Source: Eledone cirrhosa
Taxonomy: Eukaryota
Assembly: GCA_964016885.1 (NCBI GenBank)
Contig: OZ024743.1
Coordinates: 342,116,001-342,180,000, forward strand
DNA length: 64,000 bases
Direction of reading: 5' to 3'
Every line of letters begins with the position of its first letter. The stretch's first letter is position 1. The translations under genes and the position numbers were made by a program. The notes under the pieces are model-generated. The model saw nothing but the letters and a program-made list of their open reading frames with translations, did no database searches and was not told where the DNA came from. Of the stretch, positions 9,339 to 46,989 are shown piece after piece.

Positions 9339-9741
9339 GAGAGAGAGAGAGAGAGAGACAGAGAGAAATTCAGCGAGAATCGGGTAGAGAAAGCGAAACG
9401 CAAAATCAGAGTTATGCTGGCAAGCGCTCAATAGTTAAAAAACCAGTGCTAAACATATATGTTAAAACGCCATACAAACTGAAAAAGGGGTCAAGAAGGC
9501 ATTAACCACCTAAGCCAAAAAACAAGTGAACCTAAACAGGTCACACAAAATAAATGATAAAATCATATATATATACATATACACATATATAACCGACCTG
9601 GACCCATTGGAATTGATGGTAAAAAAAATATATATATATATACACACACACACATATATATATATATATAAAGAAAAAAAGATGAAATCGAAAATGCAAC
9701 TGGAGTCTTATTTTTTTTTAAATATATATATTTATTTGGTT

Positions 9742-9779
9742 CCTTTACCGGTTTCGCAGTTTTTCTGCTTTTCAAAAGT
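9742..9779 (-). ncRNA. Type I HHR, U3:A8 core variant (family A)
   Basis: Minus strand ctt-TTGAAAA-GCAG-aaaaa-CTGC-GAAAC-CG-GTA-aag. Confidence 0.75.
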
Positions 9780-9868
9780 AGAGTTGGGATGGAGGGTCTG
9801 TGGTTCTTCTCACAGCTGGTTGGTCTTTGAATGTTACTTGTTTTATATGCAAAAAAAAGTGGCTCGAA

Positions 9869-9911
<43 letters not shown>

Positions 9912-10740
9912 GTGTATACTGGTAGCTATGTTGCTTCCATAGACGATATGCCAAAATTAGCACTCGATATTCAGCAGAGTAGAGTGTAGATAGTATAGAG
10001 AAAACGAAAAAATCAGTGATGCATCTGGACTTAATTTATTGCGTGTTTCAAATGTTTCGCCGGCAGGTACTCGAGACATGGTCATTGTATGGATCTGGCT
10101 GATTCTACTTCTGCGAGTTCTTTCAGACACGGGTGTTTCATCTGGAGCAAATTTTATCACTGGGGTGTTATCATCAAAAAACACCCTAAAAAAACTCAAC
10201 TTCAACTCTTGTCATGCCATTGGATGTTTATACTTCACGTCATCACAAGTTCTGGTCAGTATCTGCTGCCACACGGTTCATCGGCCATTTTCCGTCCGAC
10301 ACATTTCAATGGAGTCATGTTGGGTTCAGTATTTCACACGTCTGTTCACACTTCAGTGTAAGCACCCATACATACTAAAATACACATATAAACACACATA
10401 CATATTTATGCATACACACACGTACGCCTACATGCGCAGACACACACATCCACACATACATACATAAAAGTATATATACACACACTCTCTCACTTCCACG
10501 GACCCAGTCACACCCACTTGTTGATACATATCGCCACAAGCCTTATGAGGGCTGCTTAGTTCGAGCCCTGTATCAGTTGGGGTAAGCATGGCCTACTCAA
10601 ACATACACATATATACATACATACGTGCGCGCACATACATACGCCCAACCATATATACATTTATATAACTATATACACACTCATACACACACATATATAT
10701 ATACACACATGTGTATACACTTATATATACACACATATAT

Positions 10741-11560
10741 TCCGTCGTCAGGAAAGTCTATTCTCATGTAAGAGAATAGACTTGAATAGACGGAATGCTT
10801 CTCTATGTTATTCTTCGGAAAATATATTTACTCCATTCCAGAAACTAATTAGTTGGAAGTGATATTTTAGTAAGTAAGTTAATTTTATAATTTTCTTATT
10901 TTACGTCTCTTATATTATTGTTCTGCAACCCCATGCATTGAACCACACTGTTATTAAGACAAAACCTATATATTTGCTAGCATTGATATGCATCTGTATG
11001 TATATATATGTTACTAGATATGAATTCTTTATTATTATCTCCAAATTATTTGTCGAGCAATATTGGCCATGACTGCTGCTACGGTTGTAGGCAGGCCGCT
11101 GTCTTATTAGCAAACCACTTTCCACTGATTGACCTCGATGTCACGTGTTAGATTCTTTTTGAATTTGCCACAGACGTAGAGGCAGTGATTTTCTCAATGG
11201 CTTGGAATTCAGTCCGCGCTTCGCTATTTCCTATCCACTGAATTATTTTGTAATAAGTTTCCAGTGTCCTCGCTTTACCTGGAAACTTACATGAGAATAG
11301 ACTTTCCTGACGACGGAATGCTTCTCTATGTATTCTTCGGAAAATATATTTACTCCATTCCAGAAACTAATTAGTTGGAAGTGATATTTTAGTAAGTAAG
11401 TTAATTTTATAATTTTCTTATTTTACGTCTCTTATATTATTGTTCTGCAACCCCATGCATTGAACCACACTGTTATTAAGACAAAACCTATATATTTGCT
11501 AGCATTGATATGCATCTGTATGTATATATATGTTACTAGATATGAATTCTTTATTATATA
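10741..11560 (+). mobile_element. Retrozyme/PLE pLTR-like non-coding element, ~523-bp unit with terminal redundancy and short 5' inversion
   Basis: 10791-11037 repeats at 11314-11560; 10741-10772 is the reverse complement of ~11286-11317; ends in (TA)n. Confidence 0.8.
11301..11382 (+). ncRNA. Type I hammerhead ribozyme with large loop II
   Basis: actttc-CTGACGA-c-GGAATG..CATTCC-a-GAAAC-TAATTA-GTT-ggaagt; stem I 6 bp; palindromic stem III. Confidence 0.88.
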
Positions 11561-11899
11561 TATATATATATATATACAAAAAAAAACGACAACTTAACAT
11601 GCATACACACATCCACATATATACATACATATACCTACGCATATGCCGATATACATACATCTACACATGCATACGCACACGTGTTGCCACATGCATACAC
11701 CTGCACATATGCATATCTTCCTACACACACATGTGCTTCCATATATACATATATAAACAAAATTGTAAATTAAAAGTTAAAAAAATACATTATGCAATAA
11801 AAAACAATATACCATAAAATAACGGTAAATTACCGTAACATAAAAAATATACAATGTAATATAATATACAATATTATTTATTTATATATATATATATCT

Positions 11900-11942
<43 letters not shown>

Positions 11943-12250
11943 TGTACACAGATTCATGCATACATATACGGATATATACGGATATATATAAAGGATATGT
12001 GATAAAGTAATACAACAAGAATAATAGTAATAATAAAAATAATAATAAAAAACCTATATATTCCATATATAATCATCCGCACACATAGACATATATATAT
12101 ATTCATATATACACACATATATACATATACACACATACACCCACATTCCGCCACATATGTACATACATGCACATGTCTGCACATACACGCGCCTATAAGC
12201 TCATGCACACACGCACCCATGCCCATACACACACCCCAGCACCCACCCAC

Positions 12251-12329
<79 letters not shown>

Positions 12330-12551
12330 CACATCTACACGCACACACACGTACATATACCCACGCACAGGTCCACACATAAAAACACACGAATGATAAT
12401 TAAATATATATATATATATAGTGCAAATTTATATATATGATTCCAGTTCCTCAGTGAAATAACAACCCAACCAGGAACTGGGCATATCAGAGTATTGACA
12501 ATATTATACACCTAAACAACATATGTACTTGTCTATACCATACTAATTCAA

Positions 12552-12606
12552 ACTGCCTGAAGAGGTCACAGTCAAAGATGGCTGTCACTGAAATATATAT
12601 AGCAGT
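12552..12606 (+). ncRNA. Type I hammerhead ribozyme with ATATATAT stem III
   Basis: actgc-CTGAAGA-GGTCACAGTCA-aaga-TGGCTGTCACT-GAAA-TATATAT-A-gcagt. Confidence 0.85.
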
Positions 12607-12837
12607 AATAAACGAAGCTAAATTTTAAACATTTGACTTTTTATTTAACTTTATTTTACATTACTCCGGAGTAACCAAACCAACCTGCGCACTTCGTCGA
12701 GTACTCCAGCCTGCATATTGAGATGTTGGTATACAACCAACATATACTCAAAATCTATCTATATATATATATTAGAAAGTGAGGGTTTTTTTACAAAATG
12801 AAAAATAACCGAGGTGTCCTACACGAGTGAAAGTATA

Positions 12838-13127
12838 ACGAAAAAGAGATGAAATCGAAAATGCAACTGGAGTCTTATTTTTTTAAAAATATATATATTT
12901 ATTTGGTTCCTTTACCGGTTTCGCAGTTCTTCTGCTTTTCAAAAGGTGAGTTGAGATGGAGGGTCTGCGTTTTTTCTCAGATGTGAGAAAAATCACAGAC
13001 CCTCCATCTCAACTCACCTTTTGAAAAGCAGAAGAACTGCGAAACCGAAAAAAGGAACCAAATAAATATATATATTTAAAAAAAAAATAAGACTCCAGTT
13101 GCATTTTCGATTTCCTCTCTTTTTCTT

Positions 13128-13130
<3 letters not shown>
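12838..13130. repeat. Fold-back palindrome of HHR family A
   Basis: ~140-bp arms centred near 12981; plus-strand HHR copy 13017-13055 has lost its GTA triplet. Confidence 0.9.
12909..12946 (-). ncRNA. Intact type I HHR, U3:A8 core (family A)
   Basis: cctt-TTGAAAA-GCAG-aagaa-CTGC-GAAAC-CG-GTA-aagg. Confidence 0.82.
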
Positions 13131-13158
<28 letters not shown>

Positions 13159-14566
13159 ATATTCATTTTCTAATCAGTATATATAAACTAATATTTAAAG
13201 TTTTACATTATATTACGCAACATAGCTAATAGCTATTATTGAAATATTAATCATTGAGTGATATTTGAAAATAATTTGGAGACAATGTTGTGAAGTTATA
13301 ATTTCCTTTCTTGTAACACCACATGGTTAGTGAATTATACTTTATCAAAAACGAACTTGTTTTAAACACTTTTAATTGACATTGTTATCATGCCACAAAA
13401 TATGATAAATTGCGTTTGAATAAATACTGCCATTAGTTGTGATTTTGTCTCTCCTGGTTGTCTTTATTGATCCTATGTAATTATATTGCTACGTGTTTTT
13501 CTATCAATTTTGTTTTCAGTATGGAAATCTATTCTAAACTGACATAAGCAGACATGTTGTACTTTTGCATGAAAGCAAATTTATTTCTTCACAATAATGT
13601 GTATATTTTGGTCGGGTTTATTGTCAAAGTAATACAACTGTAAACGCTATCTCATCAAACGTAGAAATAAAAGAATGATTTAAGTGTATCATGCCATGAC
13701 CCAACGAAGGGAATTTCCATTTGTGGGTGACCTGTTAGAATTGGAACTCAAATAATCTTTAAATTACACCGCAATCATGTTGAATAAAGACATCTATAGA
13801 CATATATATTATATAGTTTAGTGGCGATATTATATAATATATGCATATATAGTTATGTACTAGATATATCCACCAATGAAGGAGGATATACACAACCTGC
13901 AAGTGAAGGCAGCCAAATTTCCTGCCAATGCATTTTATTTCCTTAAACAAATATGCAATGGATACTTCTAAAAAATAAAGTCTGAATGATCAAATCTTGG
14001 AAGCTTTTGATACATTTAATTGCACAAGGCTAATATGTTGATAAACAACAAAAACTATATGAAATAACATACTACACATACCAAAAGTACTAGATGTAAG
14101 GCCCTAGCAAAAGCGCGTCTATATGAACACTTTATATGCTAATAGAAATCTTCTTTAATGTTTATTCTAATGTCTCAAAACAAATTGTTTTGTCAATTAG
14201 TGCAAACTATGCTGTCCAGTGGTTAACAGTAGCAACAAAAACAATAGGAAACTACAAATATACTGCCATTTGAGATAATACACATCACAGTAGTCTATAT
14301 CATTCGTCAGTATAATTTGCCATCTGCAGTATGGTAGGCGGATGTATAATACATTTGGAACAATAGATCTGTAGGGAAACCTTAGTTATTAATCGAAAAA
14401 CAACAAGCTATTGGACAGCTTGATCTATTAGAATTGAAGTGTAACTACAGAAGCTACACTAACAACAATACACATACACTCATTCTATCTGCAGGTGCTC
14501 GCACTTAAAATCAAATGGTAAATGATATCGACAAAATTGTAAGGCCCTAGCAAAAGAGCGTCTATA

Positions 14567-14634
<68 letters not shown>

Positions 14635-14637
14635 TAT

Positions 14638-14688
14638 AGAATTAGCCGTCGAAACGGCTTGAGCTCAGCTGTCGGGGTCTTACTGGTT

Positions 14689-14690
<2 letters not shown>
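14638..14690 (+). ncRNA. 3' half of an HHR embedded between TA tracts
   Basis: tagccgtc-GAAACGGCT-tgagctc-AGCTGTC-gggg; same family at 32860-32912 and 50000-50050. Confidence 0.6.
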
Positions 14691-14758
<68 letters not shown>

Positions 14759-14779
14759 TTGGTGCTCTGAAATAGTGAT

Positions 14780-15129
14780 ATTTATATGAATGAATATATA
14801 GTGTATTTTGCAATACACTGTATGCTTAATTAAAAGCATTTTGAAGAGCTAACGCTATTGTTTTAAAGTAGTGACAATGTCACTTACTTCTATTTTCAGC
14901 AAACTGGAATTCTATAAGAATCCAACATTCATAATTTTCAGCAAACAGGAGGAGTGTTGAGCTTTGATAAGTACCAACAAGCACGAAACAGAGCTCTGTC
15001 AGCTTAACTCCCCTTGTTTGGTGAAAATATAAGTAAGTAACATTGTCACTACTTTAAAACAATAGCGTAAGGTTTTCAAAATACTTTTAATTAAGCATAC
15101 AGTGTATTGCAAAATACACTATATATACA

Positions 15130-15130
<1 letters not shown>
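14780..15130. repeat. Fold-back element of HHR family B
   Basis: Arms ~14785-14905 and ~15015-15130 are reverse complements; flanked by TA tracts. Confidence 0.85.
14957..15007 (+). ncRNA. Type I HHR, U3:A8 core (family B)
   Basis: ttgagct-TTGATAA-GTAC-caacaa-GCAC-GAAAC-AGAGCTCT-GTC-agcttaa; stem I extends to 14935/15030. Confidence 0.85.
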
Positions 15131-15167
<37 letters not shown>

Positions 15168-15197
15168 TGAGATTTTAGTCTTCAAATTTATTATTAT

Positions 15198-15253
<56 letters not shown>

Positions 15254-15430
15254 ATAATAATAAATTTGAAGACTAAAATCCAAAGAGGGCTCGATAAGGA
15301 TAAATATATATCAAATATACAAGAACCGTAGAGCAAATATTTATTAAAATAACAGATTAAAGTTTAAGAAAAAAATCGCTGCTTTCACCCTTAACGGGTT
15401 CTTCTGAAACTAACAAAGTCCAACTTTGTT

Positions 15431-15481
15431 AGTTTCAGAAGATCCCGTTAAGGGTGAAAGCAGCGATTCTTTGCTTAAACT
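15431..15481 (+). ncRNA. HHR with CAGAAGA core inside palindrome 15337-15502
   Basis: agttt-CAGAAGA-tCCC-gttaa-GGGt-GAAAGCAG..TTGCTT-aaact; mirrored at 15361-15411; tail fragments at ~36264-36365 and ~63337-63383. Confidence 0.65.
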
Positions 15482-15567
15482 TTAATATGTTATTTTAATA
15501 AACATATATATATATATATATATATATATGAGATATATGTATCAGATATATATGCATATACATATAT

Positions 15568-15614
<47 letters not shown>

Positions 15615-15767
15615 TAGTAAATTTGTATTCCAATGTTACTAAGTAGTCGCATTGGATGGAGTCAACCGACGTCGGAGATTGCTCAACGTATAATAAAGTG
15701 TGTTTTAAAATCCGGAGAAAATATGGAGAACTGTATGAAACGGAAATGCGGGTATAAAGAATTTATT

Positions 15768-15884
15768 AGGTAACAATTGTTTCTATAGTGTATGGGTTAC
15801 CTATACCTCGCTATTTGAATAATATAAAAATATTATCATAAATCGTAAGTACACTGTAAGAAAACACACCATGTCGTCAGACCT
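15768..15884 (-). ncRNA. Type I HHR with ~70-nt loop II
   Basis: Minus strand aggt-CTGACGA-c-ATGGTGTG..TACACTAT-a-GAAAC-AATT-GTT-acct; tail ends at TA tract ~15610. Confidence 0.8.
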
Positions 15885-16751
15885 TTGTAGTAGAATGATA
15901 TGAAAATATTTTATACACTAGATATAAGATAAAGAAGGAGGTAGGAAGGGAAGGGGAAGAGGGAAGCGAGTAAGGGGGAGGGAGTCTTAGGATTTAAGAC
16001 TGTCAGAGTGTTAGAGATTGTAGGGAGAGAGTGCTTTGGAGCAGTTAGCTTAATGAGGCGTGTTAGGGTTGGCGGGGAAGTGAATTCTTCTAGTGGTGTT
16101 GTTTGGACAAAATTTAGTTAAAGGGGTCAAAGTGGTACTGAGTTACAGACAAGTTATTGGGGCTATTATAGTAGCAGGTTATTTCTAAAGGGATCCAAAA
16201 AACAGTGTTTAGTACTATTATTATAGAAAGCCATATCGTGTATATATATATATACGTGTGTGTGTATTCATAAACATTCCAGAAGGTTGTAGTGGAAGAT
16301 AAGGGATAAGATGAAGAATGTGGTACTTTAAGATTCCGTTATATGGAGGTTGGGTTGTCATTGGGATTTGTTACGTTTGTCGCCCAAATTCTCAGGCCAC
16401 GTTCCTACAAATGTGGTTCAATGATGAGTTTTACATGTGACAGAATACGTTTAAGATATAGTTGGGAAAATTAGATTAGTCGTATATAAGAATATTAGGT
16501 AAATATGGCATCAGGAATGGAAGAATCTATATGTGTTAGGGAGGTATGTTTTGGTGTAAATTAAACAAAAAGTTCTTACAAAACTAACAGTTTTGTTAGT
16601 GATTTTTATTTTGTTCCCCTTTTCAAAAAGAAGAATGGAGACTAAATGAAAGATAGGAAATAGGAGAGATTGCAAGAAATATTAAATTGTAACAATAAGG
16701 GTGCTGAATTAGCTGAGTTGTAAGGAACTTGAGCTCCGGATGGCAAGTATA

Positions 16752-16940
16752 TAATTGTTTCTGCTTTTGGCACAAGGCCAGCAATTATCACCAGTGCATT
16801 ACTGGTACTTTATTTTATCGACCCCGTAAGGATGAAAGGCAAAGTTAACCTCGGCGGGATTTGAACTCAGAATGGCAAGGGCCGTAACTCTATGCGTCAA
16901 AGCATGGCGTCCGACTCTCTACCGATACTGCCAATCCACA
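16752..16940 (-). mobile_element. tRNA-derived SINE
   Basis: Same family as 7962-8176 and 25275-25464. Confidence 0.85.
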
Positions 16941-17344
16941 ATATGATGTTGATATATTGTTCTATGTGGTGGATGCATAATTGGTAGTCACACCTGCACA
17001 CGAAAAATAAATAGCTCATTCACTTTGGAAGTGAAATCAGTGTATTTAATGCAAAGATGATACGTTTGGAGGAATTTGGAGAGAAGGATAGCAGATTTGT
17101 GAGTTAGAAATGTTGAAATAAAAGTGAGTTTGAAGATGTTGTATGTGAAGCTATCTAGTAAAAAATGAGATCCAGCATTCTCAAGAAATATAACTATATT
17201 TAAAAATTTACAAATGTGATAACAGAATATTTTATATATTATTCACTGCTCTTTAATAGAGACAACATTAGCAGGGAAACGGTGTTTAAAAATATACAAT
17301 ATATCTCATGAATGAATCTACTGTTAAGTTACTTAAACCCCATA

Positions 17345-17640
17345 GCAACAAAATTATCTTTGTATTATATTTCCAGAAATAATTATTGCGTTTAGCCAGG
17401 AAAATGTACTTAAAAATTCAAATTACACCAGATTTAAAGTTCTATGACACCCCAAAATAATTCTATATCAAGTAATACAATATCAATTTCTGGAGGCAAA
17501 TCGAGTTAATAACATAAAATATGGAGTCTCAGACATCTATATCCCAGAGGAAATATGAAAACTAGAAATGAAATTTACGCTTATGTGTTGTCAATATTAC
17601 ATGTTCCATTGCATTCTTTCCAAGACGAGGTCTTTAAATG
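17345..17640 (+). repeat. Diverged direct repeat, paralogous to ~25625-25915
   Basis: Colinear similarity (gcgttt..aaaatgtacttaaa..gaaatat..atgaaattt.cgcttat..ttccaaga.gag). Confidence 0.7.
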
Positions 17641-17641
17641 G

Positions 17642-17707
<66 letters not shown>

Positions 17708-17808
17708 CGCGTGCATACACACACACACCCACACACCCACACACCCACATATATATATATATATGTATATATTGTGTGTGTATGTGTGTATTTACATAAG
17801 TATATATG

Positions 17809-17886
<78 letters not shown>

Positions 17887-18165
17887 GTTATACTTCAGTA
17901 GGGCTATATTGTTGCAATATTGCCAGAAATAATAACAGAACAAACTCACTGTTTGGTTGGTTTTCGCTTTTTGTATCTTTTATACCTCCACAGTTAATTT
18001 ATTTGGCAATCAACGTTTATCATTGATTGGCCAACGGTAAAAAAATATACACATATATATATATATATATAGTCTATCAAAATTCTTTCGTTTAACATCT
18101 GCAACATCATGAGTGATACTAGTATGTTTCCTCCTGTTGTATTTTATGTCTACGTCATATTTATT

Positions 18166-18200
<35 letters not shown>

Positions 18201-18439
18201 TTCATTTATTTATTTATTTATTCTTGTCTCGGTCTCTGCGCATACGTTTGCGTGTGTATATAATGTGTGGCGTGTGTGTTCGCGTTTGAACGTACGTGTT
18301 TTAGTTTTTATATTCTATCTTTGTTTACTAGTGTGTGTTTATATGTGTTTGTTGTTATTGTACCTGTGTATATATTTATTTATTTATTCATTCACCTATA
18401 TTTCCCTTAAGTCAGTATTGTTTGTTTGGGTATGGTTGT

Positions 18440-19255
18440 TGTTATTCCATTCATTTTTTTCTGTTTAGCTTTGGTCTTCTTAGCTCTATCTCATTTGCTT
18501 CTCTGATTTGCCTTCCTGTTGATATTGTTGGATATTATTTTAATTTTTATGTTGTCTATATTACTGTCATGTCTTTGTCTGGTATGTTCGTATAGTACTG
18601 AACCGTTTTTTTGTCCTTTTAGTTCCCCCCAGTGTTAGTCTATACTTACTCCTATGCTTCGAGCTGTCTCACCTATGTATGTCGTTGTCTGGTTTCTTCA
18701 AGTACCCACTGTACATCTTATGCCATAGACTACATTTCTAGTTGTACAGTTTATCTGGGGGTTCATTTTACATATAAGACATTTATTATTAGTACAGTGG
18801 GTTTTCTTAAAGGGATATGATTTGCTAATCAGGGATTTTATGGTAGTTCCTGGCTTTTATACCACTTTAATCTTCAAATATGTCTTCCTTAGGGCCTTTC
18901 TAGATTGGTTAGCTAATTTTCTTCCAGGGGTAGCATCCACGAACATGACACTATGGTATCTCTGGTTGTCGTACCATGAAGTGGCTTTTCCTATCTTATA
19001 TTTAGTCCTATCTGAGCTAATCCATGATTTGCTCCTGTATAATGGGAAAATTCCTTTCATGTCCACTTCTATGAGGATCTTATATTTCTCCGTAGCTCTT
19101 TTGTATACTCTGATTCTGTCTCTTTGGTTGTCGCCATAGAACTGCATGCGGTTGATGAAGTGTTGGATATGACTTTCCATTTCAGTTGGGTCGCACATGC
19201 GGGACACGTTCTTCATCACTCTTACCAAGTCTGCGAATCAGAATATTAAACTTAT
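18440..19255 (-). mobile_element. Penelope-like element fragment (thumb, Cys-rich linker, GIY-YIG; Neptune-like)
   Basis: PLYRSKSW..VMFVDATPG..IKVV, then KSYPF..CTNNKCLIC..NCTTRNVVYGIRC..YIGETARS with stops. Confidence 0.85.
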
Positions 19256-19269
19256 CAGAGAGAGGGGGG

Positions 19270-20700
19270 AATTCACAAGAATCAAAGCTATGTTCAAAGC
19301 ATTTATTCACTTACAATTGTTTCATCCAAACATAGGCTTGGTATCTTCGGACCATTTTTCAATATTTGTACACATAATTGACCTCCTTTCCAACGCAAGA
19401 GACATACAGGTATATATATATTGATGTACAGTGGAGTGACATATATTATACAATATTATTTCTCTATAGCAATTCAAATTCAAAATCAAAATCAAAACTA
19501 AAATTAAAACAAAATTAAAATACATTCGGCAGTTAACACAGATAATGCAAGAGGATAGTTTGTTAGCCAGATGTAATAGTTAGTGCATGCGTTAGTTACA
19601 CGTGGGGCATGCAAGTGTGTCTCATTTATATATGATTATTGTGTGGCACGGTGTTACATGTAATACAAGCACTTTAAGCGGGTAAGTAAGGGTATTATGG
19701 TGGTTGTAGTGGTAAGGTATTTTATGTATATAATAAACAAGTATGTGTGCAGAAAAATAAAAATAAAAAGGAGAAGCAAAAGAAAGTTATGGTTTTCGTA
19801 TCCACCACCATTTTCACATTCAGGAAAAGTAATATATATAGTTTTTACATCCATCACATAAGTAAAGATGACTCCATATTGGATGCTTGATGCATTAAAT
19901 TAAATTATGTTAGCTTATTGCGGCTCAGTGTTATTTAATCCAAATTTATAGAATATGTTGATTCTGCTGCGAGAATCAACCTATTCTGTGTAAATTCTCG
20001 CAGCAGAATCAACTTATTCTATAAATTTGGATTAAATAACACTGAGCCGCAATAAGCTAACATAATTTAATTTAATGCATGAAACATCCAATATGAAATC
20101 AACGTTACTTATGTGATGGATCTAAAAACTATATATATTACTTTTCCTGAATGTGAAAATGGTGGTGGATACGAAAACCATAACTTTCTTTTGCTTCTCC
20201 TTTTTATTTTTATTTTTCTGCACACATACTTGTTTATTATATACATAAAATACCTTACCACTACAACCACCATAATACTCTTACTTACCCGCTCAAAGTG
20301 CTTGTATTACATGTAACACCGTGCCACACAATAATCATATATAAATGAGACACACTTGCATGCCCCACGTGTAACTAACGCATGCACTAACTATTACATC
20401 TGGCTAACAAACTATCCTCTTGCATTATCTGTGTTAACTGCCGAATGTATTTTAATTTTGTTTTAATTTTAGTTTTGATTTTGATTTTGAATTTGAATTG
20501 CTATAGAGAAATAATATAGTATAATATATGTCACTCCACTGTACATCAATATATATATACCTGTATGTCTCTTGCGTTGGAAAGGAGGTCAATTATGTGT
20601 ACAAATATTGAAAAATGGTCCGAAGATACCAAGCCTATGTTTGGATGAAACAATTGTAAGTGAATAAATGCTTTGAACATAGCTTTGATTCTTGTGAATT
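19270..20700. repeat. 1.43-kb near-perfect palindrome, ~707-bp arms, each carrying a degenerate CCGAAGA HHR
   Basis: Arms 19270-19976 and 19994-20700 with scattered mismatches; ggt-CCGAAGA-taCCAAGC-ctat-GTTTGGat-GAAAC-AATT-GTA at 20617-20661. Confidence 0.95.
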
Positions 20701-20741
20701 TCCCGCCCCCCCTCTCTCTCTCTCCCTCTCTCTCTTTCTCG

Positions 20742-20803
<62 letters not shown>

Positions 20804-20827
20804 TTATTTATATATATATATATATGT

Positions 20828-21770
20828 ATATAAACTAGAAATAGATTGACATATAACTTGCAAAGAATGCAAGCACACATAGCTAGGCAGGTAACAAATT
20901 AAAGTTTAACTAGAACTTCAAATATAGATACCTTTTAAAATGATTAATCCCCTTTGTATATATTTCTTTAAGTAAAAAATATATTTCACCAATTAATCAG
21001 TAAATCACAGTAGTCAAATCCTGGATGGTCACCAAAGGAGAAGAAAATAACTATCTGCGTTTACAAAGCAAATGCAAATATGTTTATTTTATATATATAT
21101 ATGTCAATCTATTTCTAGTTGATATGAAATGCTCGGATCTATTCATTGGAATCTTTGAGCTTATTCTACGGGGGATATGGCGCATGTCTCTCAGACATGA
21201 CAACACTTAATTTAATTTTGGATATATATAATTAATTGTAGAGCTAACTCAGTTGAATGGACTCTGCTGCTATTTCTATCTGTCGATAATCCTATTCACG
21301 CCAGTGGGATGACGCTGTGCGATGTGTGTATTTTTTAAAAATGCAACACGTGGTTCGAGTCATTCACAGATTTGCATTTGCTTTGTAAACGCAGATAGTT
21401 ATTTTCTTCTCCTTTGGTGACCATCCAGGATTTAACTACTTTGATTTACTGATTAATTGGTGAAATATATTTTTTACTTAAAGAAATATATACAAAGGAG
21501 ATTAATCATTTTAAAAGTTTGAAGTTCTAGTTAAACTTTAATTGGTTACCTACCTAGCTATGTGTGCTTACATTCTTTACAAGTTATTCCCTGTGATTGT
21601 TCCATATGTTTATTTTATATATATATATATATATATGTCAATCTATTTCTAGTTGATATGAAATGCTCGGATCTATTCATTGGAATCTTTGAGCTTATTC
21701 TACGGTGGATATGGCGCATGTCTCTCAGACATGACAATCCTTAATTTAATTTTGGATATATATATATATA
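20828..21770. mobile_element. Non-coding element with inverted 5' arm and ~530-bp terminal redundancy (PLE pLTR-like)
   Basis: 20855-21078 inverted relative to ~21372-21587; 21080-21230 repeated at 21604-21765; TA flanks; no clear HHR found. Confidence 0.7.
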
Positions 21771-21819
<49 letters not shown>

Positions 21820-22249
21820 ATGTGTGTATGTGTGTATGTGTGTTTGTGTGTGTGTGTGTATGTGTGCATGTGTGTGTATGTGTGTATGTGTGTGTGTGTG
21901 TGGCGGCATGCATGTATGAACAGTAACATATGTAGTGTTTTAAGTATATAAATGTGGCGTTACTACATTTTGACAACGTCTGTTGTGTGGCAGAGATTTT
22001 ATTCTTGCAAACAGTGCGACCTTGTAGAAATTCCAACTTCGTTTTGCCACCTCAACAATTCATCATATTATCTTCCCATAATATCTTCGCGGGTGTATAA
22101 ATTTCAATAATATGCTTCAAGTGCAAAACTTTGTTATTATATTCATATTTATAAAATACAAGGAAATAATTATTTCGCTTCGGGAAGAGTTTAAAGTATC
22201 TCCATGACCAATATTCAATGGTTAGCCTTTTAACCAATACACTACCCTT

Positions 22250-22745
22250 TCAACTAAAAGCATGAAATCTCAACACAGGAACAAACGCAAAAGCCTTCCA
22301 CCTCCGGTTGTTCATACAGGAGATCAGATGCATGACCTCTGGACGAACAGTGCAACACTCCAGCGGTGATATATGAGGCAGAAGTGACCTCCACCAACCA
22401 GAACCACGTGACAGAAGCTGTGCTTTTTATGTAGGAATGTCAGAGAACCGTTTCAAATGCCGTTTCCTGAATAACAAAACGACCTTCAGATATCTTGACA
22501 AAAAACATTCCATTCCTCAGCTCGCAAACCACCTATGGAATCTTAATGGAAACGTCATTGTGTTCTCCATTAAACGTAGGATGCTGTAACGATACACATC
22601 AATGGAACTAATTTTTCAACTTGTGCAGCTCTGAAAAGTGGAATGTACTTTCACAACTCTCTTTAAAATATCGCGGCTTAAATACGCACCTCGATTGTTT
22701 CAATTGTTGCCCGTAAGAAGGGAAATTTCTTCTGAGAATATGTGT
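22250..22745 (+). mobile_element. Penelope-like GIY-YIG endonuclease fragment (related to 29220-29850)
   Basis: CS.RRSDA*PLDEQCNTPAVIYEAEV..YVGMSENRFK.RF..KTTFR..LANHLWNL..NLCSSEK. Confidence 0.8.
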
Positions 22746-23063
22746 AGACGAGATTCAAAATTCGAGACTCCTGATTTAACACGAGTTATCTAATTTTATT
22801 AGCTCCTTTTGCACTTATATAATTTAATTTATGATCTATTCATAGGATAATTGCAGGATTACTGCCCTTTACATCTCTCCTGTACTAACAAGAATCTCCC
22901 CAGAAGTATTTATATACATGTATATGTCACTGTTATTACTGATTGTATACGCACGTTTATATATATGTATATATATATATATATATATATGAGCGGAACA
23001 AGTAATCATCAAACAATCTCTTAAATAAATTAAAAAACGATTTAAATATTCACCTGTTCTATT

Positions 23064-23143
23064 GCCGTTACCGACGGTTTCACTAATCAAAAGATTGGAA
23101 ATTCAGAGAATTTCCAATGGAAAGAATTAGATCTTCAGACAGC
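23064..23143 (-). ncRNA. Type I HHR within fold-back element 22989-23394
   Basis: gctgt-CTGAAGA-tCTAATT..ATTGGAAATTC-tct-GAATTTCCAAT..GATTAGt-GAAAC-CGTCG-GTA-acggc; arms 22989-23108 and 23275-23394. Confidence 0.85.
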
Positions 23144-23501
23144 TATTTCCGTACTATAAGGTATAAAGCCTCACACTAAGAGAATATATCGCTTCCTGAC
23201 CGTTGCATGGGGTCAGGCCGTTAAAGTGACCCACATACAAAAATAGGCCATAAGTAAAAGCGGGATATTATAAACTCTGAATTTCCAATCTTTTGATTAG
23301 AGAAACCGTCGGTAACGGCAATAGAACAGGTGAATATTTAAATCGGTTTTTAATTTATTTAAGAGATCGTTTGATGATTACTTGTTCCGCTCATTTTTAT
23401 AGTTCTGGTATCTCAAATTAGTACCATCGAACCACAACTATTATAAACATCATGCATATTTCTGTAGGTACTTAGTGCCTGTTGGAATATCCATTCCCTT
23501 T

Positions 23502-23557
<56 letters not shown>

Positions 23558-23558
<1 letters not shown>

Positions 23559-24118
23559 TAGCCGAATTACTCGCGCCTTTCACACATTTTTTTTGTAAGA
23601 AAATGATGATTGATTTTAAAACAGTGATATACTTCGTGGAGAAAAACTTTGCATTTCAATATTACTCAATGTAAAATGTAATGCATGAAAAATTGGAAAA
23701 CATTATTTTTTGTAATATGTCAAATCAAAATTACATTATTAAATCTTATTCTTATTTTGTTTCTTGTAAATAATTTTTTTTTCAAAATATCAATTCAAAA
23801 CCTTTGTGAATAGGCATCATAGGGTTTAACCCCAATTAGGGTGTCTTAATATTATTGAAATTTGCTGAAATTCTGTGAATATGCATCATATCTTGTCATT
23901 TACATATGGTTTAAATTTCATATAAATCGAAGGGAACACATTTTCAGCGGGCGTTTTGTGCCCCCGAGGAACCCTTTGATTAAAATGAAATATACTTATC
24001 CAAGTACCCTGGGCAATGTAGTTTCAGAATATATATGGTTAAGGGGGTATATCTCTAAAAGAATAGGAGGAGTACGTGAACAAACAAACATTCGAACAGC
24101 CAGGTATATATATGTGTA
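23558..24118 (-). mobile_element. Non-autonomous Helitron-like element
   Basis: CTAG 3' end at 23558 with subterminal GC-rich motif; 5' region with tgtttgtttgttcacg microsatellite. Confidence 0.55.
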
Positions 24119-24237
24119 AAGCGTAAACGGAAACAACACAGTACAATGGTGAAATATATTAGTGTAACGCTTGATATAGTAAGAAAATGTTTTTCCGTTT
24201 CGGACACTAGTCTTTCTCTCTATATCTCAATCTCCCT

Positions 24238-24295
<58 letters not shown>

Positions 24296-24359
24296 ACTCT
24301 CTCTTTCTCCCTCCCTCTTTCTCTCTCCCTATCTATCTATCTAACTATCTATCTCTCTA

Positions 24360-25025
24360 CGAAACCTCATGGACAATACCAGGATTAGACATATCTACAA
24401 AGTACGAGCGAAACAATTGATAGTCGGGACTAGAAGAATTTTGGTAAAGTTTATATACATTTTTTCTTTAAACTTACATTTTAGACTTAGCTCCGTTTAA
24501 TTGATTATTTTCTAGTTAATTTCTACGGACTAAGAAGAAAGACTAGGTAAATTTTATCTGACTGTTCCTCGCGGGGGATAGTATTCGAAATTACATTTTA
24601 AACTTAGCTCCAAACTTACAAATTTATATAGCACTGATTAATGATTATTTGCTTAATTAATTTGTTCATTGAGCCACACGGTGAAAGGTCGCCACACTCA
24701 TATATGTATCTGTGACTATGTCTAAATATATACATATACATCCCTATGAATTTATTCTATAGTCCCGTTCGGTCGAGTAAACCTTAGGCGGTAACTGGCT
24801 GTTCCTTTTAGAAGCCAACCTACCTGCCATCTGGCCTGCCCTTCACAACCTTCTACTTTGACCGCTGGCCACGTGATAATTCTTATCCATTTTCAATTCA
24901 TTTTCGGCGACGATCATTGTAGAAATGTTAGTCCTAACTGAGGAGTCTCTTGAAAAGCTCGAAACCTCATGGATAATACCAGGTTTGGACATATTCACAA
25001 AGGACGAGCGAAACTATCGATAGTT
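24360..25025 (+). mobile_element. Retrozyme-like 600-bp unit with a permuted U3:A8 HHR (family C)
   Basis: 24361-24424 repeats at 24961-25024; composite agtctc-TTGAAAA-GCTCG..CGAGC-GAAAC-TATCGATA-GTC-gggact. Confidence 0.75.
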
Positions 25026-27429: not shown

Positions 27430-30400
27430 TATGCTAATCAAAGATCACCTTCCTATGTCCACTAAGAACATACCTATACCATCTAAAGTTACATATGAAA
27501 AATTATTGATCAATAGTGTCAACTCTTTTATCAATAGAGTGAGATGGAGTACATTCCATTACAATAGAAACGGATCAAACAAAAACAGTGATACTAACAA
27601 TTCCGACTCTTACGGCTTTAAAACCTTTAAAAGCCCTCCTCACAACACCTTATTAAACTCTTTTGGAAATGATCTAATTAAACATAAAGTACAAAAAGCA
27701 TCGTAATAGAAACAATACCTTCTTAAACAACCTTAACTCCACTATTAAAGAAATTAATAAAAAAAAAAAATATTATAGTACATGCAAATAAAACTAATAA
27801 TATATATAGCTTAGATTACGATACATATAGAACATTTATATATAAAGAACTACATAGGAGCTATAAGAAAACTACTATTAAAAACTTAGAAAATATAATA
27901 TAGAAGACCGTAGTATAGTGTGTAAATTAAGACTTCAGAGACATACAGAGTCATGCACCCCAAACCCCCCGAGATTCTCTCTGAAAGACCATAAAGAAGA
28001 CTTCATTAGTAACCCTTCGATAAGACTAATCTGCCCTTCCAAATCTGACATTGGTATTATCAGCAAGAAAATATTAGATAGAATCATCCCACAGATTAAG
28101 CACAAAATATATCTTAACCAGTGGGGAAATACAGGGGAAGTTATTGAATGGTTTAAGGATATTAAAGAGAATAAAAATAAAAAATGTATACAATTTTATA
28201 TCAATTCATGCTACACCTCTATTTCCCCTATCACATTAAATAAGGCACTAATTAGTGACCTGACTAGATCTCAAATTGATGTCATACGTGCGACCCAAAA
28301 AACCATAATTACATTTGAAGATCAATTATGGATCCGCAAAGATACGCATAACAACTTTGACATAACTATGGAATCTGGTGACTCGGCGCAGGTCACTGAT
28401 TTGGTGCTCCTATATCTACTAAATGAAATTCATAAGAATCTACCCTACCTCAACGGTGATTTATACCGCGATGATGCACTATTCCTTATAGACTATAAAA
28501 AATTTAATATAGAAAGAACTAGGAAACTACTACATAACATTTTCAAAAACTTCAACTTAAGTATCACCTTAGATAAAAACACTAAAAACGTTAACTTCCT
28601 TGATGCTACCCTTTACCTAGACTCTAAAATATATACACCCTTTCATAAACCAAACGAAAAACTAATTCATGTGGATACCAAGTCTAACCACTCTAAATTC
28701 ATATTAAACTCAATTACTAAAGGAATATCTAATAGAATCTCTAATCTATCATATAACGAAACCATATTTAACAATAATTGCCAATACTATAATCAGGCAT
28801 TAGCTAAATCGCCATAAAAATGGGATTGAATTGATACCTATAAAATCACATAGTTACAGCATTATTTCTCACAATATGGCCACGAAGAAAAATAATAAGA
28901 ATACTAGCCACTCTTACTCTAATACGAAGGGTAATATCAAACTTAACTCGCACGAAAGTAAACACCACAATAATAATATAAACAGAAATACAAATACCGC
29001 AAAAAACAAAAATAGAAGAAAAACTAATACATTCTTCAATCCTCCTTTCAATCTAAACGACTCTACCAACTTGCCTAAGGCTTTCTTCTCAATCCTAGAA
29101 AAAAAACTGCCCATCTGGCCACAAATACCATAATCTTATATAATAAAAATACATTTAAAGTCTCTTACTCTACCGCACCTAACATCGCATACCATATAGC
29201 TAGTAGTAATAAAAGGAAGATGAGTAACTATTTCCAACTAATTAAAACACAACAGGAGGTGAACTTACAGAACAATTTAGTACATGTAAACCCTAGTAGC
29301 AATAGTAATAATGATAATAGCACTAATGAAATCAATAACAATAGGAACGACAACCATCATGACCTTAATGCTATCCATAGCAACCAGACTTCTACACAAC
29401 ATAGTAACCGACAAGCTAACATCCAACATACATGTAACTGTAGATCTAATAGAACCTGCCCCTTAGGTAATAATTGCTTAATCAAAGACATCATTTACTC
29501 TTGCACGGTCAAAACAAACAACTCTTCTAAAACTTATATTGGCTCTACTTCAAACTGCTTCAAGACGAGATACAACTCTCACCTCCACTCTTTCAAAAAA
29601 CACAGTCTATCCAACTACACTTCTTTATCTAGCTACATACACTCTCTGAAAACTAGGAATAGACCATACACACTTCAATGGGAAGTAGTAGGTAGGGCCA
29701 CATCGTATACACCACCCAAAAAATGATGTAACCTCTGTCTTCTAGAGACCCATACTATAATATTTTCGAAACTAGACCTCCTAAATTAAAAAAATCAGAG
29801 GTGTTTTCCTCATGCCAGCTCCACTACCGACACTCATTCCATAGCTTTAAACATAGCCGCTAGTATATAACAATGTCAGATTTGAATTCCTCACCACCAT
29901 TAACACTTCACCTCTAGGACTATTCTTCCCCCACATCACACGCTTTGATCTGCTCTTTCCTCTACACAACTATTTATCTCAAACCTTACACTCTACAATA
30001 TCTATTAGAAATAAATATATAGCCACCACCTTTTAAAATAACTACTTTAGATTACTTATAATATATATAGTAATGGATATATAATATGTAGAGACATTAA
30101 ATGTAATATGTGATAATGAATTATATATACATTTATAATTAAATATATAAATTAATAGCATTGTTTATAAAGGATTAAATTATTAACATATGGGATTTAA
30201 TTAATTAATTAATTAACTAATTGGATATGTAAACAGCTATACATTATTCCATATGTTGTCTAATAATGGATAAATAACAATCTAATGAAACTTTTAATAT
30301 ATTATGGGAGAGTAGACTGTATTTAAAATTAAAATTAAAATTGAATATAAATATATAACATTATGAAAAACGGATTCAATTGTGACACTATGTAATGTCT

Positions 30401-31218: not shown

Positions 31219-31798
31219 AAAAAAGTTGAAATCGAAAATGCAACTCGAGTCTTTTTTTAAACAAATATATATATTTATTTGGTTCCTTTCCCGGTTTTGC
31301 TTTTCAAAAGTAGAATTGGGATGGAGGGTTTGTGGTTTTTCTCACATCTATATATATATAATTATACAAATTATACCTACCTATATATATGTGTGTATGT
31401 GCATGACTGTGTAAATGTGTGTATATATATATACAAATGTATATATATAATTAGATAGTGTGAAAGAGGGGAAGAGACAGAGTGAGAGAGAGAGAGAGTT
31501 GAAACATGGAGCGCATGGAATAGCTGTTAAATCAGCCGGATTTCGTCAATGGCAACCGTATGTACAAATGCACAGGGAAGCACGTATCTTACGATAGTCT
31601 CTTCAAATTAACACAACGTTACGTCAACTGCAAGGCATTGAGGGGAAATCAGGGATCTAATACGAAAGAAAAGATATATTCTCGAAAAAATAATAGGACA
31701 TTTTATCAGTGTTATCACTTATAAAAATTCTACTGGGGAGTTATTTTTCTTTTTGCAGGTAGAATGATATGAAATAAGAATTATATATAATATATACA

Positions 31799-33070: not shown

Positions 33071-33300
33071 ATATATTAATAAATGGAAACTATATTTATA
33101 AAACCATATTTATTTTATTATACATATTTCAAGGGCAACCAAGGCAAATTATGGTGCGCTTTCATTAGATGAATTTATTTATAAAACAAATCTGTATTTT
33201 ATCTGATGAAAGCGCACCATAATTTGCCTTGGTTGCCCTTGAAATATGTATAATAAAATAAATATGGTTTTATAAATATAGTTTCCATTTATTAATATAT
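33071..33300. repeat. Fold-back repeat with HHR (CTGATGA at 33203)
   Basis: 100-bp arms 33071-33170 and 33201-33300; CTGATGA-AAG.GCACC..GGTTGC.CTT-GAAA-TATGTA. Confidence 0.75.
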
Positions 33301-33429: not shown

Positions 33430-34830
33430 CATATGAAGATCAGGCCTATTGTATCGAGCGTGGAAGGACCGCTCTACGTAATTTGGTGGCTCCTAACCAG
33501 AATACTTAAATCCCTACTGGACACCATGCCGGGACACGAAAAACAGCTCCAAGGAAGTGTTGGAGCGCCTACATCAAATGGATCCCGACACCCGAAAGGC
33601 TAACAGGTAAGCCTTCAGCCTTGATGTGGTCGCTCTCTACGCCTCGGTCACGGCGCGCCCGACCGTCCATATGCTGATAGAACGTGTTCAATCTACCAAC
33701 TTATAGTGCTTCGAGCTGACATCACTCCAGCTGACATCCACCAGCTCCTATCCGTCATTGTTGACAACACATATTTCAATTTTCTCGACCAAAAATACCG
33801 GCAGACCTCAGGGCTACCCATGGGCTCAAGCCTGTCGGGTGTGCTAGCGATCTCGTATATGGACAGCCTCGAACGCAAGGCACTCAACGCCTGCCGCCCC
33901 AACGCCGTCGCCTTCTTCTCAAGATACGTGGACGACATCCTCATCCTCACATCTTCCCAGGAGATGCCGAACGGGATTTACGAGACGTTCAGCAACACGG
34001 ACGAGAATATTGTCTTCAGTGTTGAACACCCCGACGGCGACGGTTCCCTTGCACTCCTCGACTTCTGAATCAACATCACAGAGCAGGGAGCGTTCCACAC
34101 CAGCTTCTACCGCAAGGCAGCCTGCAGAGACTTGTTCGTCCATTACACATCTGCCCTCCCTAACAGTGCATCACGAACGAGATGATGTGGATTAAAAACA
34201 GATGCAGCGATCCCGTGAGTAGTGTCACCCATACCAAGCGGTTACTCAGGGTGCTGGAGACGAACGGAAACCCAGCATCATTTACAAGCAGAGTAAGAGA
34301 CACCAGACGCAAGAGGCAGAGAAATACCCAAGGCAAGTGCTTCCTTAAAATCCCGGACCTGGACGAGAAAACCACCAACGCTATCCGCAGGGCCATACGG
34401 AGGGAGGGCCTCGACATCCACTTGGCCCACTCGAGCCCCTCCCTACGGAGATGCCTCTCCAGGAAACCAGAGAAATTGGTTGACACGTGTTACCGCCAGC
34501 AACGGTCCGATGCGCCAAACGAACTGTTTGCTACGCATGTACGTTGTATACAGCGTAGAATGTGACAAGTGCAACGACTACTACATCGATAGCACAATCC
34601 GACCACTACATCTCCGGATCAAGGATCACATCAACACCAGGGCCAGGTCTTTCAAGAAACACATAACCAAATGCGGAAAGAAAGACAGAAGGCCCATTGT
34701 CACTGTGTTAGCGGCAGAACGCAACGTCGCCACATTAAGAATCTAGGAAGCACTTTGGATCAAACGCCTCGGACAACAAATAAATAACCGATCCGAGAAA
34801 AGTGAGAGGAGATGGCTGGTGTAAACAAAC
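33430..34830 (+). mobile_element. Penelope/Poseidon-type PLE (RT + GIY-YIG), disrupted
   Basis: FSLDVVALY; QTSGLPMGSSLSGVLA; RYVDDIL; LALLDF; VVYSVECDKCNDYYIDSTIRPLHLRIKDH. Confidence 0.9.
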
Positions 34831-43900: not shown

Positions 43901-44377
43901 TTTATCGGGACATGCTCCCACATAGTCCCAACGTGCATCTAGTATTCCATTCCAGTCCCCCACTAAAAGCAAGGAGCGGGACGTTCCCAGAAAAGTCTCT
44001 AGACGTCTGAAGAAGTCTGGCCGCGGTGTCCCGGATGGGGCATATGCGGCCACCAGCCTGAAGGCTCCACCTTCACTACCGTCAACGTCTAGGACCAGCA
44101 GTCGACTCTCCGGGTCCAGATGTACCGTCTGTGTTACGAGGCTCAGGTGTTTCCGCAGCAAAACAGCAACTCCGCCCCCACCCCCCGGTTGACAGAGAGA
44201 TGCGTAGATCTCAAAGTCATCGAAGATGGGGGCCAGCTGTCGCTCGCTGTGGATCCTGGACTCGCAAATGGCTACCACATCCATACTGTGCGACCTGAGG
44301 TCGTTTAAGAGTTTGCCCTGTTTCCAGGGCATCCCTAGGCCGCGTACGTTCACACATCCAACTCTTATATTGGCCAT
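40993..44377 (-). pseudogene. Tx1 ORF2 (APE endonuclease + reverse transcriptase), frameshifted
   Basis: CVNVRGL, ICES, AYAP, VGDWN, SYLDR, YSDH; KSPGLDGL; NFRPITLLN; LDQSKAFDRVDH; IRQGCPLS; CPRS..EETVAHAF. Confidence 0.92.
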
Positions 44378-46682: not shown

Positions 46683-46989
46683 AGTATCTAGGGAAGAAGA
46701 CGATGTTGACTGCGAGCTCTGTAGTCTTACCGACTCTCCACCACCATTATCGTTGAAACAGCGTTCATAACGTAATCAAACTTCTTCCGATATTTTATTC
46801 AAAATTCGATGGAGAAAAAATTTTAAACCGAATATTTCGCCCCTGTATAGGCGAAAATGAGTTGACCCACCACCTGAAGGTCCAGACGGGGAGTCAAGTT
46901 ACACAATAATATAAAATTTAACTGAAAACTCACGTTTTTTTCTTACATAAATTAACGGAAACTTCTCCGCGAAGTTACACACGTCTGGT

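What the first reader, a model, noticed from the sequence alone, without database searches (positions are those of the whole stretch)
9742..25025. Three unrelated HHR families share a compensatory U3:A8 catalytic core
Seen: family A (TTGAAAA; 9742, 12909, 13017), family B (TTGATAA; 14957) and family C (TTGAAAA; 24950) replace CUGANGA with UUGANAA while keeping stems I-III, GAAA and GUH. Known: C3-G8 is a tertiary base pair, and U3-A8 is a functional but uncommon natural covariant that consensus searches miss. Inference: repeated double substitution in unrelated families indicates selection for cleavage and a large overlooked pool of variant ribozymes.
Basis: partly seen in the sequence, partly recalled or inferred. 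Interest (0 to 1): 0.8.

Follow-up and report, generated by a model that had tools for sequence, protein, structure and literature searches.

The report
Retroelement hammerheads with swapped core pair
Repeats in this animal genome carry hammerhead-ribozyme motifs in which a core C-G pair is replaced by U-A; the swap is already known, but here it occurs in over 20,000 copies and likely arose several times while likely keeping the RNA able to cut itself.

Summary
The U3:A8 cores are real family traits, not decay. With positions 3 and 8 left free, U3:A8 holds in 99 of 100 listed copies of A (12,613 matches), 99 of 100 of B and 56 of 58 of C. Only three of the five cited window copies keep all elements: 13017 lost its GUA, and 24950 lost its helix I 3' strand.

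A is the 3' repeat of a Penelope-like retrotransposon (RT + GIY-YIG). B is a 320-nt non-coding tandem retrozyme-like unit; C is a ~600-nt unit with a long helix II insert. B and C have C3:G8 sister subfamilies. Trees place U3:A8 as derived, twice within the B superfamily (one origin rejected, p-AU 4e-5) and once in C. Mismatched 3:8 states appear only as scattered copies. A genome-wide sequence pattern gives about 23,600 U3:A8 against 61,400 C3:G8 net hits (28%), mostly family A.

U3-A8 is published as natural and active (Perreault 2011) and as about 1,300 Penelope-linked copies in Schistosoma (Cervera 2014). New here are the census and the repeated switches. Cleavage and expression are untested. 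Verdict: new members of a known kind, moderate interest.

The parts
9743..9778 (-). Family A type I hammerhead, U3:A8 core at 9775, helix I 3 bp, helix II 4 bp, palindromic helix III, GUA site; inside a 5'-truncated 3' repeat fragment 9667-9874
12909..12946 (-). Family A hammerhead, intact U3:A8 copy (core at 12942); element fragment 12756-12985
13017..13055 (+). Family A inverted partner copy, U3:A8 core at 13021, cleavage triplet lost (GTA to AAA); fragment 12978-13131
31219..31349 (-). Fourth family A fragment, U3:A8 core but helix II partly deleted
14935..15030 (+). Family B type I hammerhead: long bulged helix I, U3:A8 core at 14964, helix II with one mismatch in this copy, self-complementary helix III, predicted cut after C15000
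14765..15142 (+). Family B element: part of a 320-nt non-coding monomer (14903-15142) with an inverted piece (14765-14907), between (TA)n runs
24944..25025 (+). Family C hammerhead, U3:A8 core at 24950, 5-bp helix II with a 43-nt insert, GAAA at 25010, palindromic helix III; truncated after GT so the helix I 3' strand is missing
24360..25024 (+). Family C element: one ~600-nt non-coding unit between two partial ribozyme copies (24360 and 24960 are in register)

Best explanation
These are type I hammerhead motifs of Penelope-like retrotransposons (A) and of non-autonomous tandem retrozyme-like units (B, C) in which the tertiary 3:8 Watson-Crick pair reads U:A instead of C:G, and which likely still cut their own RNA, probably as dimers. 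Shown: U3:A8 is fixed per family; helix III is self-complementary; A lies about 1 kb downstream of an RT + GIY-YIG ORF on the same strand; B and C are non-coding tandem units with C3:G8 sisters. Inferred: tandem transcripts pair two helix III palindromes, cleave after GUA or GUC, and release unit RNAs that a Penelope-like RT/endonuclease copies into (TA)n sites. The C:G to U:A switch would happen in a master copy, probably through a U:G wobble under AT-biased mutation, and be tolerated because pairing, not base identity, is required. Most genomic copies are passive, decaying products.
For: Fixation with positions 3 and 8 free: A 99 of 100 listed, 12,613 matches, and all 39 C3 copies are unpaired C3:A8 singles, none C3:G8. 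B 99 of 100 listed, 140 matches. C 56 of 58, with position 7 varying T/G/A as expected for the free position. B superfamily, 1,660 matches; first 100 by hand count: 50 U3:A8, 44 C3:G8, 1 U3:G8, 5 mismatched. In 28 aligned copies 93.5% of cells pair (slid controls 35-44%), 7 of 29 pairs change on both sides, and 3:8 is 13 C:G, 13 U:A, 2 other. Trees with 3 and 8 masked, rooted on a C3:G8 relative: B U3:A8 clade 99/97, nested among C3:G8 copies; J (U3:A8) separate; one origin rejected, p-AU 4e-5 (flanks only 0.004). C clade 100/100 among 5 C3:G8 relatives, midpoint root. A: GIY-YIG PF01541 E 5.5e-5 upstream. A related element (49% aa identity) also has U3:A8 in 17 of the 19 loci, of 30, that show the motif. 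Helix III homodimers -8.3, -20.1, -15.5 kcal/mol vs hairpins 0, -1.8, 0. U3-A8 reported natural and active in vitro (PMC3088659).
Against: No cleavage or expression data were obtained. Single-strand folds are weak: z -0.4 to -2.8, and neither intact A copy stands out. Helix I of A is only 3-4 bp, and the A-related family has a U.U at 10.1:11.1 and a bulged helix I. Pairs with two-sided change did not beat the shuffle (31 of 500), further pair types were below shuffled, and relatedness inflates cell counts. Metazoan Penelope minimal hammerheads cleave poorly in vitro (PMC4209133). In an anole Poseidon element, catalytic mutants did not affect insertion in vitro and no RNA-seq reads began or ended at the cut site (PMC11167929). 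No autonomous partner was found for B or C.
Confidence: 0.78

Rival explanations
1. Non-catalytic passengers: the motifs no longer cleave. U3:A8 is two AT-ward transitions fixed in master copies by drift, and the structure is kept for another job such as protein binding or priming.
For: Both changes are GC-to-AT transitions in a window of about 26-53% GC per 2 kb, mostly near 33%. Cleavage was dispensable for insertion in vitro in one Penelope-like element. Activity of minimal motifs is low.
Against: Unpaired 3:8 states appear only as scattered copies (6 non-Watson-Crick of 100; 39 of 12,613), while position 7 and helix II vary between subfamilies. The 3:8 pair belongs to the active fold, so keeping it through several switches fits selection on that fold.
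Confidence: 0.12
2. Positive selection: U3:A8 tunes the cleavage rate (likely slower) to balance cutting against keeping full-length or circular template, and was favoured repeatedly.
For: All polarised switches run C:G to U:A. U3:A8 lineages are successful (A 12,613 exact copies; half of the B superfamily sample). The sister of the B U3:A8 clade is a C3:G8 copy that already has G10.1:C11.1 (96/91).
Against: C3:G8 motifs are still 2.6 times more numerous and C3:G8 sisters coexist. Direction is also what AT-biased mutation predicts. The G10.1:C11.1 sister rests on one copy, and J and the A-related family lack G10.1:C11.1.
Confidence: 0.07
3. One ancient U3:A8 ribozyme was inherited or shuffled into A, B and C, so there is no repeated substitution.
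For: A and a 49%-identical relative share U3:A8 and the same helix III, so that state is probably inherited there. Ribozyme cassettes could recombine between elements.
Against: B-UA is 87% identical to C3:G8 sisters including the ribozyme helices. One origin is rejected within the superfamily. C nests among long-helix-II C3:G8 relatives. Helices of A, B and C are not alike.
Confidence: 0.02
4. Chance matches, or decayed copies of CTGANGA families.
For: Single decayed copies do drift this way (one U3:A8 copy on a C3:G8 background; one U3:G8 copy). Rfam gave 0 hits at gathering score on 8 loci.
Against: Family-wide fixation. Reversed-pattern controls were 0 for family patterns and 645 vs 24,285 for the generic one.
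Confidence: 0.01

Closest known systems
U3-A8 minimal hammerheads of Cercyon Penelope-like elements in Schistosoma mansoni (Cervera and de la Pena 2014, PMC4209133; parts 1-2 of 4 read)
   Same: Same U3-A8 core swap, in Penelope-like repeats, missed by the first descriptor; dispersed single and opposite-strand paired copies; palindromic helix III, dimer model.
   Different: About 1,300 hits there vs about 23,600 net pattern hits here (different descriptors). Family A has a 4-bp helix II, not 7-8 bp. The parts read give no tree of switches.
Natural U3/A8 covariants (Perreault et al. 2011, PMC3088659; passages read)
   Same: C3-G8 covaries to U3-A8 in several natural hammerheads; stated active in vitro.
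   Different: Several examples there; here whole high-copy families with C3:G8 sisters in one genome.
Animal non-LTR retrozymes (Cervera and de la Pena 2020, PMC7229834; bioRxiv 10.64898/2026.07.22.740005; passages read)
   Same: B: 320-nt, 33% GC, non-coding head-to-tail monomers with a canonical-shaped type I hammerhead and a self-paired circular fold (z -5.3). Such elements are proposed to be non-autonomous Penelope derivatives.
   Different: U3:A8 core. The C unit (~600 nt) exceeds the 170-400 nt range quoted and has a 43-nt helix II insert. Circular RNA expression not shown here.
Neptune/Nematis-type EN+ Penelope-like elements (Craig et al. 2021, PMC8557442; passages read)
   Same: A: RT, Cys linker, C-terminal GIY-YIG, 3' hammerhead, 5'-truncated and inverted copies, microsatellite targets.
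   Different: Clade placement not tested by tree. Their core-motif search used the string cuganga, which cannot match these U3:A8 cores.

Membership tests
Type I hammerhead ribozyme | Core Y3-UGA-N-R8-A with a 3:8 Watson-Crick pair, GAAA, and NUH | tested here: met
   Family level. Window copies 13017 and 24950 fail individually.
Type I hammerhead ribozyme | Helices I-III around the core, helix I open | tested here: met
   B: 93.5% of cells paired with covariation. C: helix I 6 bp in 17 of 30 exact copies. A: helix I only 3-4 bp.
Type I hammerhead ribozyme | Site-specific self-cleavage after H17 | not testable with these tools
   Needs an assay or raw RNA reads.
Rfam hammerhead families | Score above gathering threshold | tested here: not met
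   0 hits on 8 loci; no hammerhead among the 150 of 303 window hits shown.
EN+ Penelope-like element (family A) | RT plus C-terminal GIY-YIG ORF upstream of the ribozyme on the same strand | tested here: met
   L123: broken ORF, PF01541 E 5.5e-5, ribozyme about 1,050 nt downstream; GIY-YIG part also in L124, L125, L127. Pfam RVT_1 did not hit L123; RT assigned from motifs read by eye.
EN+ Penelope-like element (family A) | 5'-truncated copies with inverted partners, microsatellite insertion | tested here: met
   Sharp 3' ends and ragged 5' ends; opposite-strand pairs about 70-120 nt apart; window 12756-13131.
Neptune clade | Cys-rich linker between RT and EN | tested here: met
   CxxxxCxxC read directly in L123; shared with Nematis.
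Neptune clade | RT phylogeny within Neptune | not tested
   No reference RT set was on hand.
Non-LTR retrozyme (family B) | Short, low-GC, non-coding head-to-tail monomers with one type I hammerhead each | tested here: met
   320-nt trimer L170; GC 0.33, longest ATG ORF 25 aa; 316- and 311-nt relatives in arrays.
Non-LTR retrozyme (family C) | Monomer of about 170-400 nt in tandem | tested here: not met
   Unit about 600 nt, partial tandems; works like a retrozyme but lies outside the quoted size range.
Non-LTR retrozyme (B, C) | Expressed as circular RNA | not testable with these tools
   Needs raw RNA reads or northern blot/RT-PCR.

The most novel reading that the evidence does not exclude
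The hammerhead 3:8 pair flips from C:G to U:A again and again in this genome's Penelope-like elements and retrozymes, as a rate-tuning switch enabled by changes in helix II. U3:A8 motifs make up over a quarter of the genome's ~85,000 minimal-type hammerhead hits, so CUGANGA-only screens systematically under-count animal ribozymes and may have called some Penelope lineages ribozyme-less by mistake. The matched natural C3:G8 and U3:A8 sister pairs give a ready test of compensatory evolution in a catalytic core.
Probability: 0.3. Interest if true: 0.62.

Novelty: new member of a known kind. Interest (0 to 1): 0.42.

Why it matters
The variant itself is known. What this locus adds is scale and history: about 28% of net hits of one minimal-hammerhead geometry in a 3-Gb animal genome are U3:A8, and one retrozyme superfamily holds C3:G8 and U3:A8 sisters at 87% identity with at least two switches. 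That makes two open points directly testable with natural pairs: whether Penelope/retrozyme hammerhead cleavage matters for mobility, and how a tertiary pair in a catalytic core is exchanged. It also shows that annotation descriptors should use YUGANRA rather than CUGANGA.

Tried and rejected
Rfam scans: no hammerhead among the 150 of 303 window hits shown, all below gathering score; 0 hits on 8 loci. The repeat finder on the whole window was swamped by microsatellites.

An alternative reading of family C with a canonical CTGAGGA core at 24938 was rejected: it comes from a 1-nt deletion in the window copy, most copies read CTGAGGGA, and helix II does not pair.

The idea that B or C are hidden ribozymes of Naiad elements (reported to lack canonical ones) found no support: no coding sequence is linked upstream of B or C in the fetched loci, and nearby ORFs are other insertions. 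A candidate full-length C element (two copies 4.8 kb apart) had no ORF of 110 aa or more (L121).

Expression: no RNA holder listed; laying contigs of two runs of unknown kind could not show ends or strand. Neither is evidence either way.

The AU rejection is an artefact of leaving out one nested U3:G8 row; one search is the valid test (U3:G8 and A3:G8 rows dropped; 12 of the intact B U3:A8 monomers sampled at random; 30 rows in all).

Papers not held: Lunse et al. 2017 and Przybilski and Hammann 2007; only their titles were seen in reference lists. Paper searches for U3A8/C3G8 and C3U/G8A spellings returned 0. Searches with 'octopus' returned no hammerhead census in the listings. Supplements were not read and may list U3-A8 motifs for related animals. 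Earlier scan findings: none.
Full report
Setting. The window is C4:342,116,001-342,180,000 of a 2,996-Mb assembly in 1,796 contigs. It is AT-rich and full of (TA)n/(CA)n runs and retroelement remnants. It looks like an animal genome; the taxon was not determined.

Observation. A type I hammerhead descriptor with positions 3 and 8 free gave 4 hits in the window, two U3:A8 (-12942, +14964) and two C3:G8 (+12557, +33203), against about 0.37 per shuffled window. A relaxed scan found TTGANAA cores with helix II at -9775, -12942, +13021 and +24950. Three of the five cited copies keep all parts: 12909-12946, 9743-9778 (helix I 3 bp) and 14957 (one helix II mismatch). The 13017 copy has AAA in place of GTA, and the 24950 copy stops after GT and lacks the helix I 3' strand. 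Single-strand folding gives weak z-scores of -0.4 to -2.8. Rfam does not detect these motifs.

Fixation. Genome-wide patterns left positions 3, 7 and 8 free; counts of listed rows are by hand. Family A: 12,613 matches, control 0; 99 of the first 100 are U3:A8 and 1 is G3:A8. Only 39 of the 12,613 have C3, all C3:A8 and none C3:G8. Family B: 140 matches; 99 of 100 listed are U3:A8 and 1 is U3:G8. Family C: 58 matches, 56 U3:A8 and 2 U3:U8, with position 7 varying among T, G and A. In 30 fetched C copies, 17 have GTC followed by the exact 6-nt helix I partner and most others near variants.

What the families are. A copies have sharp 3' ends, ragged 5' ends and frequent opposite-strand partners. 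In L123 the ribozyme lies about 1,050 nt downstream of a broken ORF with RT-like motifs, a CxxxxCxxC linker and a GIY-YIG domain (PF01541, E 5.5e-5; RVT_1 did not hit); L124, L125 and L127 show the same C-terminus. That is a Neptune/Nematis-type Penelope-like element by the features in PMC8557442; clade placement was not tested. B is a 320-nt non-coding monomer (GC 0.33) found as head-to-tail trimers with an inverted 5' piece in (TA)n; its circular fold has z -5.3 against 60 shuffles. C is a ~600-nt non-coding unit in partial tandems whose helix II carries a 43-nt insert. No coding partner was found for B or C. A, B and C share no significant DNA similarity. All three have self-complementary helix III that favours a dimer (-8.3, -20.1, -15.5 kcal/mol) over a hairpin (0, -1.8, 0).

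Repeated switches. Scanning 511 kb of loci plus window revealed C3:G8 sisters of B. A superfamily pattern gave 1,660 matches; the first 100 are 50 U3:A8, 44 C3:G8, 2 C3:A8, 2 C3:C8, 1 U3:G8 and 1 A3:G8. On 28 aligned copies, 93.5% of cells pair (35-44% when slid), 7 of 29 pairs change on both sides (31 of 500 shuffles reach that, so not significant), and 3:8 is 13 C:G, 13 U:A, 2 other. These cells count related sequences, not events. Further members are a 316-nt U3:A8 array, a 311-nt C3:G8 array, and subfamily J (U3:A8; most of 175 hits, control 21). A 30-row tree with 3 and 8 masked, rooted on the 311-nt C3:G8 unit, nests the B U3:A8 clade (99/97) in a C3:G8 grade and places J apart. One origin is rejected (p-AU 4e-5; flanks only 0.004, with a less resolved tree). 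The clade's sister is one C3:G8 copy with G10.1:C11.1 (96/91). C is 65% identical over 596 nt to a C3:G8 family, and 10 C copies form a clade (100/100) among 5 C3:G8 long-helix-II relatives under a midpoint root. So at least three switches are supported, most simply C:G to U:A. For A no C3:G8 sister was found. A related element (49% aa identity over 248 aa) has U3:A8 in 17 of the 19 loci that show the motif (1 C3:A8, 1 deleted; 11 of 30 loci lacked it), so the state is probably old there.

Pool size. A sequence-only pattern (core, 12-18 nt, GAAAC-NN-GTH; pairing not required) gave 24,285 U3:A8 hits (reversed control 645) and 61,672 C3:G8 hits (control 295): about 23,600 vs 61,400 net, or 28%. 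Of the first 100 U3:A8 hits, 83 are A-like, 8 the A-related family, 6 one array and 3 other. The pool is large in copies but spread over few families, and long-helix forms such as B and C are not counted by this pattern.

Mechanism. Shown: anatomy, fixation, covariation, element context. Established: C3-G8 is a Watson-Crick pair of the active fold (PMC3884650 passages), and U3-A8 is natural and active in vitro (PMC3088659 passages). Inferred: tandem or paired transcripts fold as dimers, cut after GUA or GUC, and yield unit RNAs copied by a Penelope-like RT/endonuclease; master copies needed a paired 3:8, and U:A was reached by two transitions, probably via U:G. Against a strong functional claim: metazoan minimal motifs cleave poorly (PMC4209133), and in an anole element catalytic mutants did not impair insertion in vitro and cleavage was protein-assisted (PMC11167929 passages). 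Purifying selection on pairing is well supported; an advantage of U:A is not.

Comparison and novelty. Cervera and de la Pena 2014 (parts 1-2 of 4 read) already describe the U3-A8 core in Schistosoma Penelope-like elements, missed by their first descriptor, with about 1,300 hits. B matches animal non-LTR retrozymes (PMC7229834 passages), proposed to be Penelope derivatives (bioRxiv 10.64898/2026.07.22.740005 passages). Craig 2021 used the string cuganga in its core-motif search, so the warning about missed variants has some force. My searches showed no census or tree of 3:8 switches, but Lunse 2017 and Przybilski 2007 were not held and supplements were not read.

Verdict. The feature is real and its kind is known; these are new members, with a useful natural experiment in matched sister ribozymes. 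Interest 0.42.

Noticed in passing
window 12545-12610 (+) and 33190-33265 (+): Canonical C3:G8 type I hammerheads with TA-palindromic helix III; the 33203 copy lies in an inverted repeat (33071-33300) near Penelope-like RT/GIY-YIG remnants at 33625-34746.
   Followed up: partly
window 23138 (-), within 22960-23557: Another long-helix-II type I hammerhead-like motif with a C3:G8 core in an inverted repeat; a related copy in L049 reads C3:A8.
   Followed up: partly
L129, L134, L144, L181, L029 and family C: A superfamily of type I hammerheads whose helix II carries a 40-50-nt insert containing its own hairpin; short-helix descriptors would miss it whatever the core.
   Followed up: partly
G000 C1:1,239,857-1,244,284; C1:5,388,706-5,392,670; C1:5,738,326-5,750,934: Long tandem arrays of C3:G8 hammerhead units (310-311 nt and about 466 nt), some head-to-head; retrozyme-like satellites. 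At least 61,000 such motifs genome-wide.
   Followed up: partly
L013 position 2539 (-): A further U3:A8 motif unrelated to A, B or C (helix I 4 bp, helix II 4 bp with 12-nt loop); one copy seen, family not searched.
   Followed up: no
window 27882-29726 (+), 18729-19237 (-), and L128/L129/L142: Penelope-like RT and GIY-YIG remnants. The L128/L142 family has an RT insertion together with what looks like a C-terminal GIY-YIG in L129 and L135; clade not determined.
   Followed up: no
window 19257-20713: 720-nt inverted repeat, 98% complementary, 17-nt spacer, next to a Penelope-like remnant.
   Followed up: no
window 41046-44425 (-) and 45596-46775 (-): Near-complete non-LTR (LINE) retrotransposon remnant with endonuclease and RT reading frames.
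   Followed up: no
B superfamily and A-related family: Several subfamilies carry U.U at the normally G:C pair 10.1:11.1, with either core state.
   Followed up: no
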